Virus record (IMG/VR): IMGVR_UViG_3300020336_000246
Span: 17,785-81,784 of that record
Strand: one strand, 5' to 3'
Origin: a virus
Taxonomy: Duplodnaviria; Caudoviricetes
Length of the DNA stretch: 64,000 nt
Shown here: in pieces, positions 5,895 through 8,769 of the stretch
Layout of the letters: each line of letters opens with the position of its first letter
Numbering within the stretch: position 1 is the stretch's first letter
Notes under the pieces: model-generated
Database searches by the model: none
What the model was told of the DNA's origin: nothing
What the model saw: only the letters and a program-made list of their open reading frames with translations
Position numbers and translations under genes: made by a program

Positions 5895-5904
5895 TGTTTT
5901 TCCT

Positions 5905-5933
5905 TTGACATTAGTTATCTCTTTTGTTATAAT
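5905..5933 (+). promoter_or_regulatory. Sigma70-type promoter for tmRNA; a TAAATA box follows at 5950-5955
   Basis: Perfect TTGACA-N17-TATAAT. Confidence 0.85.
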
Positions 5934-5939
5934 AGTAGC

Positions 5940-6262
5940 ATATTAAGGCTAAATATCACTGCAATTGATGATAGCAACGTATGTCACAAGAGCAAGACCC
6001 GGGTGCAATTCCCGGCCACTCCACCAATTCAATATACCCCCGTCGGGGTGGAATTAGGATCGATTGGCTTGTTAAGGTTGAAGGAGACTGTCCGGATGTA
6101 AGCTCGGTTAACGCGAACAAACGTTATAGATGCAAACGATAATGCACTAGACAACGTTACTTTCGTAGATTTTTCTGCGCCAGTAACTGCGTTTAATGAG
6201 GATTTTGCCCTAGCGGCATAATCGCTCGGGGTTGGCAACTTACCTAGCAACAGAAAAGTTGC
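5940..6262 (+). ncRNA. ssrA: Circularly permuted two-piece tmRNA, alphaproteobacterial type
   Basis: Acceptor piece first (T-arm CCGGG-TGCAATT-CCCGG, CCACTCC-A-CCA ending 6026), then an 18-nt intervening segment, then the coding piece starting GGGGTGG (6045) with a G3-U70 pair; tag ORF at 6132-6221; outer ends approximate. Confidence 0.93.
6132..6221 (+). other. tmRNA proteolysis-tag reading frame ANDNALDNVTFVDFSAPVTAFNEDFALAA*
   Basis: Resume codons GCA AAC GAT AAT; ends ALAA-TAA. Confidence 0.9.
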
Positions 6263-6336
6263 GTCTATTACTACATAGGCAAAGCCTATAATAATTTCTA
6301 AATAAATATCGTGCTAGGTGAGAAGGAGTAATTATA

Positions 6337-7401
6337 ATGCCACCACGCAATCATAGAAACTGGTTGAAAGAACCAGCAGTAGAATATATTAGTAGCGAGT
6401 GCTATAATAATCAAGACATACACGATCAAGAACAAGAACAAATCTTTAGTAAGGTTTGGATACCTATGTGTCATAAGAGTGAACTACCAAACGAGTTAGA
6501 CTTTAGAACAACACAGATAGCAGGAGTCAATGTTCTTGTGTATAACACAGGCAAAGAATTTAGAGCATACCGTAACTATGGAGAACAAACACCAGCAGGA
6601 ACACTAGGAGCACCTATCGTAACTGTTGAACCTCAGTTGCATTTGGAAGTAAAGCACGGAGGTATGATATGGGTAACACTTAATCCTGATCCTGATCAAA
6701 CTGTAGAACAATGGACAGCAGGTGCATTTGATTGTATTGCTGATGCTATTGATACAGAGGAACTAGAAGTATTCCATTATCATAAAGCAATCATTCCTAC
6801 AAACTACAAACTATGGCATGATACCAATAGTGAATTCTATCATGACTTCATGCACTATTTTAATCGTGTAACAGGATTCAATGATGAATACTTTGCTCGT
6901 AAGAATATTGCGTTCGATAACGGTCATGTAAATGTAAGTTCTTTTACTGTCAACTATACCGAGTTTGATAAAGATGGAGATAGAGGAGAGTTAAGTTTTC
7001 CTAACTTGCCACCCAACCAATGGTATATGGTAGACTTGTTTCCAGGCTTCAACTTTAACCTACGTGGTAGTGCATATAGATCAGATAGTGTTACTCCATT
7101 AGGACCTAACAAAGTTCTTATTGAGTTTAGAGGTTATGGACTTAAGAATGATACCAAGGAAGAAAGACTCACACGTATCAGGCACCATAATACTATTTGG
7201 GGACCTTTTGGTAGAAACTTGCATGAAGACTTGCTAGGTGTTACAGGACAGGGTGCATCAATGGCTCCAGGTACTGAACGTAGGAACATTCTACATGGTA
7301 GACACGAGAACTCAACTATCCACGATGAAGTTGGTATGCGTCACTACTACGCAGAATGGGGCAAATACTTAGACGTAAACCCATCAAATCCATTGACATA
7401 A
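6337..7401 (+). CDS. msmA: Ring-hydroxylating oxygenase alpha subunit, methanesulfonate monooxygenase MsmA-like, lacking the Rieske cluster motif
   Basis: NYKLWHDTNSEFYHDFMHYFNRVTGFND mononuclear-Fe region and PPNQWYMVDLFPG, WGPFGRNLHED segments recalled from MsmA; no CxH...CxxH motif. Confidence 0.8.
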   Translation: MPPRNHRNWLKEPAVEYISSECYNNQDIHDQEQEQIFSKVWIPMCHKSELPNELDFRTTQIAGVNVLVYNTGKEFRAYRNYGEQTPAGTLGAPIVTVEPQLHLEVKHGGMIWVTLNPDPDQTVEQWTAGAFDCIADAIDTEELEVFHYHKAIIPTNYKLWHDTNSEFYHDFMHYFNRVTGFNDEYFARKNIAFDNGHVNVSSFTVNYTEFDKDGDRGELSFPNLPPNQWYMVDLFPGFNFNLRGSAYRSDSVTPLGPNKVLIEFRGYGLKNDTKEERLTRIRHHNTIWGPFGRNLHEDLLGVTGQGASMAPGTERRNILHGRHENSTIHDEVGMRHYYAEWGKYLDVNPSNPLT

Positions 7402-7566: not shown

Positions 7567-7642
7567 GGGGGATTAGCTCAGCCGGGAGAGCGCCTGATTT
7601 GCATTCAGGAGGTCAGCGGTTCGATCCCGCTATCCTCCACCA
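7567..7642 (+). tRNA. tRNA-Ala(TGC)
   Basis: Full cloverleaf, G3-U70 pair, anticodon loop TT-TGC-AT, encoded CCA. Confidence 0.97.
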
Positions 7643-7652
7643 CACCACTTAC

Positions 7653-7729
7653 GGGGGTGTAGCTCAGTTGGTTAGAGCGTCCGCCTGTCACGCGGAAGGC
7701 CGAGGGTTCGAGTCCCTTCACTCCCGCCA
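7653..7729 (+). tRNA. tRNA-Asp(GTC)
   Basis: Cloverleaf GGGGGTG/CACTCCC, loop CT-GTC-AC, G73, CCA. Confidence 0.97.
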
Positions 7730-7829
7730 TGAAATTTAATCAATTAGATAAATAGATAGGCAGAAGAACACGGTCAATTTTTTTTTGACTGAAATTTTTT
7801 TTGACCTAACAATAGCAAAGGAAAAAGAA

Positions 7830-8660
7830 ATGACGCAACTGATATCCCCACAAAAGTTTACACACTCCACTGGCCTTTTAAGGTCATTTTTTTTGGATAA
7901 AGGATTTGAAGAAGTCCATACCCAAAACAGATTAAGCATACTTGCCGCTTGTGAAGATCCATTCAATGTAGCAACATACAATTACGCCGGCCAGGTATGG
8001 CCCTTACCGCAGACAGGCCAAATGTGGTTAGAACACGAATTATTAAGTAGCCCCTCTAGTAAGGGGTTTTTTTGTGTCTCCACTTCCTATAGACAGGAAC
8101 CAAATGCAATACCAGGGAGACATGATATAATATTTCCTATGTTTGAATTTGAGATGCCAGGTGACATAGATGATCTTAAGAAGATGGAGTATGAGTTATG
8201 TGAACACCTAGGATTTAAAAAGCCTACTGAAAAGACTTATGCTGAATGGCAACAACATTACGGTCATGCTGAAGATTATGAAATGACTGCTGATGAAGAA
8301 ACTAAGATGCACGAAGAGTTTGGTACAACAATGATCACAGACTTCCCAGAACTTACAAGTCCATTTTGGAACATGAGTAGAAATGCTGATGGTAAGACTG
8401 CAAAGAAGATTGATGTTATACTAGGTGGGATGGAAACAATAGGATCAGCAGAACGTTCATGTGATGTTGATATGATGAGAGATACATTCCACAGTATTAC
8501 AGATGGTGCATACAGTAAGCTACTTTACAGTCTGTTTAGCAAGGAACGTGTTGAAGCAGAACTAGAGAAGTTCTTAGAGTTTGACTTCTTTCCTAGAGTA
8601 GGCGGTGGCATAGGTATGACACGTATGATAGCGGCCTTAGAGAAACACTGGAAAGACTAG
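7830..8660 (+). CDS. Class IIb aminoacyl-tRNA synthetase paralogue (Asp/AsnRS catalytic core only; archaeal-type asparagine synthetase-like)
   Basis: Motif 2 SYRQEP..GRH...F.MFEFE and motif 3 GGGIGMTR; no N-terminal OB anticodon domain; start taken at ATG 7830 (track uses TTG 7785). Confidence 0.85.
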   Translation: MTQLISPQKFTHSTGLLRSFFLDKGFEEVHTQNRLSILAACEDPFNVATYNYAGQVWPLPQTGQMWLEHELLSSPSSKGFFCVSTSYRQEPNAIPGRHDIIFPMFEFEMPGDIDDLKKMEYELCEHLGFKKPTEKTYAEWQQHYGHAEDYEMTADEETKMHEEFGTTMITDFPELTSPFWNMSRNADGKTAKKIDVILGGMETIGSAERSCDVDMMRDTFHSITDGAYSKLLYSLFSKERVEAELEKFLEFDFFPRVGGGIGMTRMIAALEKHWKD

Positions 8661-8667
8661 AGTTTAA

Positions 8668-8769
8668 TCTGGGGTGGTGAAACTGGTAAACACGTACAAC
8701 TGTTCATTGTATGGTTAATGTACTGCAATATATTTAACCTTGGAGGTTCGAATCCTTCCCCCAGAGCCA
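8668..8769 (+). tRNA. Non-canonical tRNA-Asn(GTT) with a long variable arm, 102 nt
   Basis: TCTGGGG/CCCCAGA-G-CCA; 3-bp D stem GTG/CAC; TACAA-CTGTTCA-TTGTA; 30-nt variable region; GGAGG-TTCGAAT-CCTTC. Confidence 0.88.

What the first reader, a model, noticed from the sequence alone, without database searches (positions are those of the whole stretch)
7653..8769. Anticodon-domain-less AsnRS-like enzyme paired with a long-variable-arm tRNA-Asn(GTT): candidate new aminoacylation module
Seen: the order is tRNA-Asp(GTC), a 276-aa class IIb synthetase core with motifs 2 and 3 but no OB anticodon-binding domain, then 7 nt later a 102-nt tRNA. That tRNA has tRNA-Asn hallmarks (U1-A72, GTT, G73). It also has a class II body: a 3-bp D stem and a 30-nt variable region folding into about 10 bp with one bulge (8713-8739). 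Position 37 is C rather than the usual purine. Known: long variable arms normally occur only in Ser/Leu/Tyr/Sec tRNAs; SerRS reads the arm, not the anticodon; truncated AsnRS paralogues act as Asn synthetases in archaea; many alphaproteobacteria make Asn-tRNA via a non-discriminating AspRS plus GatCAB. Inference, three options: (a) the enzyme charges or amidates this tRNA using the arm in place of anticodon recognition, bypassing GatCAB; (b) host SerRS charges it and Asn codons are misread as Ser; (c) the tRNA is an anti-defence decoy or amino-acid donor.
Basis: partly seen in the sequence, partly recalled or inferred. Interest (0 to 1): 0.9.

Follow-up and report, generated by a model that had tools for sequence, protein, structure and literature searches.

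The report
Phage AsnRS-like enzyme with captive tRNA
A marine phage carries a cut-down asparagine-tRNA-synthetase look-alike followed 7 bases later by an oddly built asparagine tRNA; hundreds of ocean phages keep the pair, but relatives of the enzyme are fused to pyrimidine-synthesis enzymes and work without any such tRNA, so it is probably a new metabolic enzyme and not this tRNA's charging enzyme.

Summary
Window 7830-8660 encodes a 276-aa class IIb synthetase core with no anticodon-binding domain. Seven bases later (8668-8769) lies a real 102-nt tRNA with GUU, U1-A72, G73, CCA, a 3-bp D stem, C37 and a 30-nt variable hairpin.

A tRNA(GUU) follows the enzyme in 148 of 158 testable virus loci, including cyanophages P-SSM2, P-SSM5 and P-SSM7. 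Found by its own sequence, the tRNA has the enzyme upstream in 113 of 114 loci.

The long arm is not constant: it runs from 7 to 39 nt, with unrelated hairpins in different lineages, so it cannot replace anticodon reading. The body is tRNA-Leu-like. Identity marks never vary, while U33 and purine-37, needed for decoding, drift.

The enzyme family reaches well beyond the tRNA. It occurs in giant-virus-like and other phage contigs without it. It is fused to PyrD or PyrF and sits beside PyrE, PyrD, ThyX, RNR or TK, with the same active-site residues throughout.

Best reading (0.42): a pyrimidine-linked small-molecule ligase, co-transcribed with a host-loaded tRNA that carries or decodes asparagine. 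A private charging pair stays possible (about 0.17).

This scan has already noted the same cassette on other DNA, with at least 28 genomes in one word look-up. I found no paper on it.

The parts
7567..7642 (+). tRNA-Ala(UGC), context: first gene of the local tRNA run
   Evidence: ARAGORN; Rfam tRNA 65.8 bits
7653..7729 (+). tRNA-Asp(GUC), an ordinary class I tRNA upstream of the cassette
   Evidence: ARAGORN; Rfam tRNA 72.9 bits
7785..7813 (+). Promoter-like site ahead of the enzyme gene. No such site lies between the enzyme and the tRNA.
   Evidence: Consensus scan with 9 of 12 matches; the count in the region is not above shuffles, so this is weak
7830..8660 (+). 276-aa AsnRS-derived class IIb catalytic core without an anticodon-binding domain ('X'). 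Landmarks are ACEDP, LPQTGQMWLE, motif 2 (SYRQE...GRH...FEFE), GSAER and motif 3 (PRVGGGIGMTR).
   Evidence: Pfam PF00152 5.4e-17. NCBIfam asnS 30 bits against a cut-off of 343. AF2 model pLDDT 95. Best folds are AsnRS 1x54, 8h53 and 2xgt. PDB profile: AsnRS 4.8e-13, AS-AR 0.002. 47 invariant columns across the family.
8661..8667 (+). 7-nt spacer between the stop codon and tRNA position 1. In most relatives it is 5-10 nt; in a few the ORF end overlaps the tRNA.
8668..8769 (+). 102-nt tRNA(GUU) with U1-A72, G73, encoded CCA, a tRNA-Leu-type D arm (3-bp stem), C37 and a 7/5 acceptor/T arrangement
   Evidence: Rfam 46.7 bits. Own model R1 89 bits. Covariation. D-arm identity to phage tRNA-Leu.
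8702..8704 (+). Anticodon GTT. The loop spans 8700-8706 (CTGTTCA) and position 37 is C at 8705.
   Evidence: Rfam alignment. G34, U35 and U36 are invariant in alignments A1 and A3.
8712..8741 (+). 30-nt variable region. The hairpin at 8713-8739 has 10 bp and one bulged U, with loop CUGCAA. This insert is lineage-specific.
   Evidence: RNAfold of the segment. The outer helix is 97.8% paired, with 3 pairs changed on both sides. Length across the family is 7-39 nt.

Best explanation
The window holds a two-gene transcription unit that is common in ocean phages.

Gene 1 (X) is the catalytic core of an asparaginyl-tRNA synthetase that has lost its anticodon-binding domain. It keeps every ATP-site and amino-acid-pocket residue. 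Most likely X is not the synthetase of the tRNA behind it. I read it as an ATP-dependent small-molecule ligase acting on asparagine or aspartate, or a carbamoyl derivative of them, at the entry to pyrimidine synthesis. My preferred reaction makes the dihydroorotate ring for PyrD. Two routes are chemically possible: closing N-carbamoyl-aspartate, or bridging the two nitrogens of asparagine with CO2.

Gene 2 is a genuine tRNA, rebuilt from a tRNA-Leu-type body into an asparagine acceptor. I propose that host enzymes load it, either non-discriminating AspRS plus GatCAB or AsnRS. It then delivers asparagine, to X or to the ribosome.

Shown here:
- the anatomy of both genes;
- the conserved pairing;
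- the covariation in the tRNA;
- the fusions and gene neighbourhoods of X;
- identical active-site residues in family members with and without the tRNA.

Inferred:
- the reaction X catalyses;
- loading of the tRNA by host enzymes;
- the carrier role of the tRNA.
For: X is tied to pyrimidine and nucleotide synthesis.
- At least 9 protein clusters are PyrD(DHO_dh)+X fusions, 52-54% identical to the window enzyme over 96-99% of its length.
- These fusions are real ORFs in independent assemblies, on giant-virus-like contigs next to thymidine kinase.
- One X+PyrF fusion lies beside PyrE and PyrD.
- In phage loci L021 and L023 a PyrD-like gene lies just upstream of the X-tRNA cassette.
- Other neighbours of X are ThyX, RNR with glutaredoxin, RpiB and TK.

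The chemistry is the same with or without the tRNA.
- 47 columns are invariant across tRNA-linked, fused and tRNA-less members, and they include all motif residues.
- On the tree, tRNA-linked X forms one clade. It is sister to the giant-virus/PyrD-fused clade, and the deeper branches have no tRNA.

X is nearest to true AsnRS and not to the known Asn synthetases.
- PDB profile: AsnRS 4.8e-13, AS-AR 0.002, AsnA not found. The fold search agrees.
- The pocket motif QTGQMxLE aligns with the AsnRS motif QSSQLYLE.

The conservation pattern of the tRNA fits a host-loaded carrier.
- Among 105 unique sequences U1-A72 is kept in 104, and G73 and GUU in all 105.
- U33 is kept in only 90. Position 37 is U in 79, A in 15, G in 6 and C in 5.
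- Bacterial GatCAB reads U1-A72 and the D-loop, not the anticodon (PMC2330236).

The arm is not a constant recognition element: it runs from 7 to 39 nt.

Co-transcription is likely. The spacers are 5-10 nt and no promoter-like site lies between the genes.
Against: - The pairing is very tight and one-sided. The tRNA is essentially never seen without X (113 of 114). A direct enzyme-tRNA interaction would explain that more simply.
- Motif 2 keeps the Glu that binds a free alpha-amino group in synthetases. That fits a plain amino acid better than N-carbamoyl-aspartate.
- Cyanophage P-SSM7, two large relatives' contigs and this 82-kb fragment show no PyrD. The pyrimidine link therefore rests on a minority of contexts.
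- No known enzyme performs the proposed reaction.
- I could not check whether the hosts lack AsnRS and free-Asn synthesis.
- Expression evidence is weak. It consists only of contigs from RNA libraries, which may hold DNA.
Confidence: 0.42

Rival explanations
1. Private charging pair. X is a minimal, anticodon-blind AsnRS that aminoacylates the cassette tRNA and perhaps host tRNA-Asn. It would recognise the acceptor end (U1-A72, G73) in place of the anticodon. This would give the phage its own Asn-tRNA supply, for example in hosts that lack AsnRS or that attack tRNA-Asn.
For: - The tRNA follows X in 148 of 158 loci, and X precedes the tRNA in 113 of 114.
- The pair keeps together while its neighbours change, as in P-SSM7 compared with P-SSM2 and with this window.
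- X is closest to genuine AsnRS and keeps all catalytic and Asn-pocket residues.
- U1-A72 and G73 are invariant while the other acceptor pairs covary.
- The altered anticodon loop and Leu-type body might impair host synthetases.
Against: - Members with the same active site work without any such tRNA, in giant-virus-like contigs and other phages. They are fused to PyrD or PyrF.
- All three characterised class IIb cores that lack the anticodon domain (AsnA, AS-AR, EpmA) do not charge tRNA. This is established knowledge.
- X has no extra domain that could hold a tRNA.
- One X-bearing phage has only an ordinary tRNA-Asn, far from X.
Confidence: 0.17
2. Asparagine supply cassette. X is an ammonia-dependent asparagine synthetase, which would be a third independent AsnA/AS-AR-like invention. 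The tRNA is an extra decoder for AAY codons and is charged by host AsnRS with the Asn that X makes.
For: - There is precedent in AsnA and AS-AR (established knowledge; PMC2330236 notes that AsnA co-occurs with AsnRS).
- The pocket is AsnRS-like.
- The link to tRNA-Asn makes thematic sense.
- Asn codons are about 6.1% of codons in this phage.
Against: - It does not explain the fusions to PyrD and PyrF or the PyrE/PyrD cluster.
- X is not a member of the AS-AR or AsnA families.
- A decoder should keep U33 and a purine at 37, and this family does not.
- If the hosts lack AsnRS, free Asn is of no use for charging. That the hosts lack AsnRS is my recollection for Prochlorococcus and many alphaproteobacteria, and I did not test it.
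Confidence: 0.18
3. No biochemical link. The adjacency would be an inherited transcription unit in which the tRNA depends on X's promoter. The tRNA would be an ordinary spare decoder whose loop and body changes help it escape host or phage tRNA nucleases.
For: - No promoter-like site lies between the genes, and the spacers are 5-10 nt.
- Phage tRNAs with altered anticodon loops have been proposed to evade anticodon nucleases (PMC10264068, listed; I did not read it in detail).
- The tRNA-linked enzymes form a single clade, so vertical co-inheritance is possible.
Against: - The pair persists through 55-100% enzyme identity and through many different neighbourhoods.
- Loss is asymmetric: the tRNA is lost in about 6% of loci, and X is lost with the tRNA kept in 1% or fewer.
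Confidence: 0.12
4. Host SerRS or LeuRS charges the long-arm tRNA, so that Asn codons are read as Ser or Leu.
For: - The body is class II and tRNA-Leu-like.
- G73 is also the discriminator base of bacterial tRNA-Ser (established knowledge).
Against: - The arm shrinks to 7 nt in some lineages, while GUU, G73 and U1-A72 stay invariant.
- A73, the key LeuRS determinant, is absent.
- Proteome-wide Asn-to-Ser recoding would be harmful, and nothing in the ORFs suggests it.
Confidence: 0.03

Closest known systems
Asparaginyl-tRNA synthetase, class IIb catalytic domain (e.g. P. horikoshii 1X54, human 8H53, Brugia malayi 2XGT)
   Same: - The fold matches (Foldseek E about 1e-17, TM 0.74-0.79 normalised by the query).
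- It is the best sequence-profile match (4.8e-13).
- Motifs 1-3 are present, with an AsnRS-type Glu in QxxLE and the Arg in GSxxR.
   Different: - X has no OB anticodon-binding domain and no hinge.
- It scores 30 bits against the asnS cut-off of 343.
- It has its own signatures: ACEDP in place of the usual loop, and two invariant Cys.
- Family members are fused to pyrimidine enzymes.
Archaeal asparagine synthetase AS-AR (PDB 3P8T) and bacterial AsnA
   Same: Both are class IIb cores without an anticodon domain that were recruited to small-molecule amide synthesis. Their size is similar, at about 275-330 aa.
   Different: X is not a family member. NF005053 scores 12 bits against a cut-off of 322. 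3P8T reaches only E 0.002, and AsnA is not detected. The truncation was therefore independent. Neither enzyme is known to pair with a tRNA gene or to fuse with PyrD or PyrF.
EpmA/GenX/PoxA (LysRS paralogue that modifies EF-P)
   Same: It is a class IIb core without an anticodon domain that acts on a non-tRNA acceptor. The profile match is weak (3A5Z, 5.7e-5).
   Different: EpmA has a LysRS-type pocket and an EF-P partner. X has no such context.
Class II (long-arm) tRNAs and allo-tRNAs (PMC5389517)
   Same: The D stem has 3 bp, the variable arm is structured, and the anticodon does not match the body type.
   Different: The cassette tRNA has the standard 7/5 acceptor/T arrangement, not 8/4 or 9/3. 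Its Asn identity marks are conserved, and its arm length is not fixed (7-39 nt).
GluQRS (YadB), a truncated GluRS that glutamylates queuosine-34 of tRNA-Asp
   Same: It is a synthetase core without an anticodon domain that acts on a GUN-family tRNA. This shows that such cores can use a tRNA in non-standard ways.
   Different: GluQRS is a class I enzyme. U33, which Tgt needs (established knowledge), is not conserved in the cassette tRNA. No test was possible.

Membership tests
Canonical AsnRS (class IIb) | Class II catalytic core with motifs 1-3 and an Asn pocket | tested here: met
   Pfam PF00152 5.4e-17; fold and profile matches to AsnRS; motif residues invariant
Canonical AsnRS (class IIb) | N-terminal OB-fold anticodon-binding domain | tested here: not met
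   The Pfam match covers the core only. PF01336 is absent from the 82-kb contig. Homologues also start at motif 1.
Canonical AsnRS (class IIb) | Score above the curated asnS equivalog cut-off | tested here: not met
   TIGR00457 scores 30.4 bits against a cut-off of 342.6
Canonical AsnRS (class IIb) | Aminoacylates tRNA-Asn | not testable with these tools
   Needs an enzyme assay
Asparagine synthetase A / archaeal AS-AR | Sequence membership (NCBIfam NF005053; similarity to 3P8T or 12AS) | tested here: not met
   12 bits against a cut-off of 322; 3P8T at E 0.002; AsnA not found
Asparagine synthetase A / archaeal AS-AR | Forms Asn from Asp, ATP and NH4+ | not testable with these tools
   Needs an enzyme assay or complementation
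Bacterial tRNA-Asn | Anticodon GUU, discriminator G73, U1-A72 | tested here: met
   Seen in the window. In 105 unique relatives GUU and G73 are invariant and U1-A72 is kept in 104.
Bacterial tRNA-Asn | Class I body (4-bp D stem, 4-5 nt variable loop) and A37 | tested here: not met
   The D stem has 3 bp, the variable region has 30 nt and position 37 is C. The ordinary phage tRNA-Asn in L182 differs: positions 8-27 are 11 of 20 identical.
Class II tRNA (Leu/Ser/Tyr type) | 3-bp D stem with a structured long variable arm | tested here: met
   Met in the window (10-bp arm). The D arm is 19 of 20 identical to a phage tRNA-Leu. The arm is lost in some relatives.
Class II tRNA (Leu/Ser/Tyr type) | Leu, Ser, Tyr or Sec anticodon and matching discriminator | tested here: not met
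   GUU with G73
allo-tRNA | 8/4 or 9/3 acceptor/T-stem arrangement | tested here: not met
   7-bp acceptor and 5-bp T stem, both 100% paired
De novo pyrimidine pathway enzyme (new member) | Fusion or operon link to PyrD, PyrE or PyrF | tested here: met
   Seen for family members: PyrD+X and X+PyrF fusions, the PyrE/PyrD cluster, and PyrD-like neighbours in L021 and L023. Not seen in this window's 82-kb fragment.
De novo pyrimidine pathway enzyme (new member) | Catalyses a pathway step, and the early pyr genes are absent where it occurs | not tested
   Earlier scan notes claim this for ultrasmall bacteria. I could not re-test it. None of 10 longer relatives carries an MGS domain.

The most novel reading that the evidence does not exclude
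The enzyme and its captive tRNA work together directly. There are two forms of this reading.

(i) The pair is a natural, anticodon-blind, private synthetase/tRNA pair.

(ii) Asn-tRNA is the asparagine donor for an AsnRS-derived enzyme that starts pyrimidine synthesis. The tRNA would be loaded by host ND-AspRS plus GatCAB. This would be a tRNA-dependent route into nucleotide metabolism, carried by abundant ocean phages.
Probability: 0.3. Interest if true: 0.9.

Novelty: new variant of a known kind. Interest (0 to 1): 0.72.

Why it matters
The cassette is common. It also sits in cultured cyanophages (P-SSM2, P-SSM5, P-SSM7), where it is annotated only as 'tRNA ligase' plus 'tRNA-Asn'.

If the enzyme opens a new ATP-driven route into pyrimidine synthesis, it would be a new kind of viral metabolic gene. 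It would also be another case of a class IIb synthetase core recruited to metabolism, alongside AsnA, AS-AR and EpmA.

If it uses the tRNA, as acceptor or as asparagine donor, it would be a natural orthogonal pair or a new tRNA-dependent pathway. Either would interest workers on genetic-code engineering and on ocean nitrogen and nucleotide budgets.

The tRNA is a clear natural case of identity remoulding, with Asn marks on a Leu-type body. Gene finders miss or mislabel it: ARAGORN gave att, atc and ctc as the anticodon, or found nothing.

Tried and rejected
- **Single-sequence AF2 model.** It was useless (pLDDT 37). The alignment-based model replaced it.
- **blastn of the tRNA against the phage collection.** No match. 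Too short and divergent for the method.
- **Host identification.** An exact match of the phage tRNA-Ala found only a 596-bp contig binned in a Myxococcota MAG, probably phage DNA. The host pathway (asnS, gatCAB, asnA/B) could not be checked. The control genomes of the genome search include neither Prochlorococcus nor SAR11.
- **Literature.** Searches found only a table entry, 'tRNA ligase T4-GC 194', in PMC3037559. Nothing turned up on AsnRS-like/PyrD fusions or on AsnRS status in Prochlorococcus.
- **Contexts of divergent relatives.** P0146, P0150 and P0242 were uninformative.
- **MGS-domain fusions.** Reported in earlier scan notes, but not seen in 10 longer relatives.
- **PyrD/E/F in this contig.** None, but the contig is only about 21% complete.
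- **RNA libraries.** Only contigs were laid. They cover parts of X with exact matches and a relative's tRNA region, and DNA carry-over cannot be excluded. Parts without cover say nothing.
- **treekit tree.** The run timed out. A FastTree tree with midpoint root was used, and its supports were not inspected.
- **On-tRNA amidation of Asp-tRNA by X.** Rejected. The ester-linked alpha-carboxyl would have to sit deep in the side-chain pocket. This is inference only.
- **Complex prediction.** Not used, because no protein-protein binding is claimed.
Full report
**What is there**

The window is AT-rich phage DNA (about 37% GC). It comes from an 82-kb virus contig that CheckV rates as 21% complete.

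The local gene order is as follows.

| Feature | Coordinates |
|---|---|
| Alphaproteobacterial-type permuted tmRNA | 5901-6266 |
| MsmA-like oxygenase | 6337-7401 |
| tRNA-Ala | 7567-7642 |
| tRNA-Asp | 7653-7729 |
| 276-aa ORF ('X') | 7830-8660 |
| 102-nt tRNA | 8668-8769 |

X matches Pfam tRNA-synt_2 over the catalytic core only (5.4e-17). It falls far below the curated asnS, aspS and AS-AR cut-offs. No OB anticodon-binding domain is found anywhere in the contig.

The Rfam tRNA model matches the tRNA at 46.7 bits. The anticodon loop is CUGUUCA, and about 30 nt of the variable region are not matched to model positions. ARAGORN's 'att' call comes from a poorer alternative fold.

**Is the pairing real?**

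The enzyme has close relatives in cyanophages P-SSM7, P-SSM2 and P-SSM5 (63-67% identity). There it is annotated 'tRNA ligase', and each copy is followed 7-9 nt later by an 85-86-nt tRNA-Asn.

I fetched 160 loci whose enzymes are 47-96% identical to the window's. The tally combines scripts and a covariance model.

| Result | Loci |
|---|---|
| tRNA(GUU) follows the gene | 148 |
| No tRNA | 10 |
| Cut off by a contig end | 2 |

Some contigs were sampled twice.

For the reverse test I searched viral contigs with a pattern taken from the tRNA alone. X lies directly upstream in 113 of 114 testable loci. The one exception is not a true family member. This pattern covers only the GUG/CAC D-stem subfamily, and many of these contigs are the same ones fetched through X.

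**The tRNA**

Across 50 diverse copies 99.7% of stem cells pair and 20 of 23 pairs change on both sides.

Among 105 unique sequences the conservation is uneven.

| Position | State |
|---|---|
| U1-A72 | 104 of 105 |
| G73 | all 105 |
| Anticodon GUU | all 105 |
| Position 33 | U in 90 |
| Position 37 | U 79, A 15, G 6, C 5 |

U8-G9 was required by my detection script, so I do not count it as a finding.

Positions 8-27 are 19 of 20 identical to a phage tRNA-Leu(UAG) and only 11 of 20 identical to ordinary phage tRNA-Asn. A model built from the family scores the tRNA-Leu genes of huge phages above their tRNA-Asn genes. The molecule is therefore an Asn-marked tRNA on a Leu-type body.

The variable region ranges from 7 to 39 nt. 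Eight of the unique sequences have class I length (76 nt). Many carry a 13-17-nt hairpin. The window's sub-lineage carries a 28-32-nt hairpin with a conserved loop (YNGCAA) and 3' strand (UAUUUA). Other lineages carry unrelated hairpins.

Within the window's sub-lineage the arm covaries: the outer helix is 97.8% paired, with three pairs changed on both sides. The arm is real but lineage-specific. It cannot be what the enzyme family reads.

**The enzyme**

With a 26-member alignment, AF2 gives a confident model (pLDDT 95). Its best structural matches are AsnRS, followed by AspRS of the archaeal/eukaryotic type.

The family profile hits AsnRS at 4.8e-13. Archaeal Asn synthetase AS-AR reaches only 0.002, and AsnA is not found. 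The QTGQMxLE motif aligns with the AsnRS motif QSSQLYLE. From memory, AspRS has QSPQLYKQ at this place, with a Lys where AsnRS has the neighbouring Glu.

The family has 678 clusters at 50% identity. It is mostly viral.

**The turning point**

A search for longer relatives found X fused to pyrimidine enzymes.
- At least nine clusters are PyrD+X fusions, and one is X+PyrF.
- The PyrD+X genes are intact ORFs in independent assemblies. They sit on giant-virus-like contigs with RING, TBP-like and AAA genes, and thymidine kinase is the next gene.
- The X+PyrF gene lies beside PyrE and PyrD.
- In phage loci L021 and L023 a PyrD-like gene sits just upstream of the X-tRNA cassette.
- Where the tRNA is missing, the neighbours are ThyX, RNR with glutaredoxin, or RpiB.
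- None of the fusion loci has the tRNA.

Forty-seven alignment columns are invariant across tRNA-linked, fused and tRNA-less members, and these include every motif residue.

On a FastTree tree the tRNA-linked enzymes form one clade with a few secondary losses. That clade is sister to the giant-virus/PyrD-fused clade, and the deeper branches lack the tRNA. The tree is midpoint-rooted and I did not inspect its supports.

One X-bearing phage contig has only an ordinary tRNA-Asn, about 80 kb from X.

**How it most likely works**

The same active site works in viruses of eukaryotes and in phages that have no such tRNA. It is repeatedly fused to late pyrimidine enzymes. X is therefore most likely a small-molecule ligase at the entry to pyrimidine synthesis and not this tRNA's synthetase.

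The chemistry is inference. Dihydroorotate could arise by ATP-driven closure of N-carbamoyl-aspartate. This forms the same amide bond at the aspartate beta-carboxyl that Asn synthetases make. It could also arise by bridging the alpha-amino and side-chain amide nitrogens of asparagine with CO2.

The conservation pattern of the tRNA fits loading by host enzymes. The invariant positions are the ones read by AsnRS or non-discriminating AspRS (anticodon, G73) and by bacterial GatCAB (U1-A72; PMC2330236). Positions that matter for decoding drift.

That pattern suggests a carrier that brings asparagine to X in hosts that make Asn only on tRNA. The tRNA may still decode AAY codons, which make up 6.1% of codons here. 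Whether the hosts lack AsnRS and free-Asn synthesis rests on my memory and was not tested.

**Rivals**

The private charging pair remains the simplest account of the one-sided, near-absolute linkage. I give it about 0.17. A plain Asn synthetase with a helper decoder gets about 0.18. A purely transcriptional linkage gets about 0.12. SerRS or LeuRS mischarging is unlikely.

**Known or new**

I found no paper on the pair. Sullivan et al. 2010 list only 'tRNA ligase' in a table.

This scan has met the same cassette on other DNA. One word look-up returned 34 notes from at least 28 genomes, and the sequence look-up found look-alike stretches in 74 genomes. Several follow-up notes also point to pyrimidine synthesis, including a claim about ultrasmall bacteria that I could not re-test. 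My fusion and neighbourhood evidence was obtained before I read those notes.

Noticed in passing
window 5901-6266: The phage encodes an alphaproteobacterial-type permuted (two-piece) tmRNA (Rfam RF01849, 97.5 bits). Its tag is unusually long at 29 residues and ends in ALAA. Relative L010 carries a variant tag.
   Followed up: partly
window 7567-7729: tRNA-Ala and tRNA-Asp have 60-65% GC in a 37% GC phage. The exact tRNA-Ala sequence occurs only on a 596-bp contig binned in a Myxococcota MAG (L186), which is probably phage DNA mis-binned.
   Followed up: partly
window 6337-7401: The MsmA-like oxygenase gene is 72% identical at DNA level to the methanesulfonate monooxygenase gene of Puniceispirillum (SAR116) phage HMO-2011. 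This may be a hint to the host.
   Followed up: no
L092, L094, L111, L155, L049-L053 (relatives): In several relatives the enzyme ORF runs 4-50 nt into the tRNA. RNase P cleavage of the tRNA would then remove the stop codon of the mRNA. This is notable in phages that carry their own tmRNA.
   Followed up: no
window 8713-8739 and about 30 relatives (alignment A1): The inserted variable-arm hairpin keeps a loop ending in GCAA and a fixed 3' strand, UAUUUA, while its stem covaries. It may bind something. Other lineages carry unrelated hairpins at the same site.
   Followed up: partly
L173 538-3221; protein P0282: Mobile elements surround or interrupt the enzyme gene. GIY-YIG/NUMOD3 homing endonuclease genes lie on both sides in L173, and one relative has a LAGLIDADG domain inside the ORF.
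   Followed up: no
window 7950-7952 and 8073-8075 (Cys41, Cys82 of the enzyme): Two cysteines are invariant across the 13 aligned representatives of the family. One lies in the ACEDP loop and one just before motif 2. As far as I recall, canonical AsnRS has no conserved Cys at these places. They may be catalytic.
   Followed up: no
window 8668-8769; L022, L040-L044, L006, L007 and others: ARAGORN mislabels long-arm copies as tRNA-Asn(att), tRNA-Asp(atc) or tRNA-Glu(ctc), or misses them altogether. Routine annotation will therefore under-count this tRNA.
   Followed up: yes
L004 3940-5502 (huge phage LR756501): A RimK-like ATP-grasp ligase lies directly downstream of the tRNA-less enzyme homologue in a 735-kb phage.
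   Followed up: no
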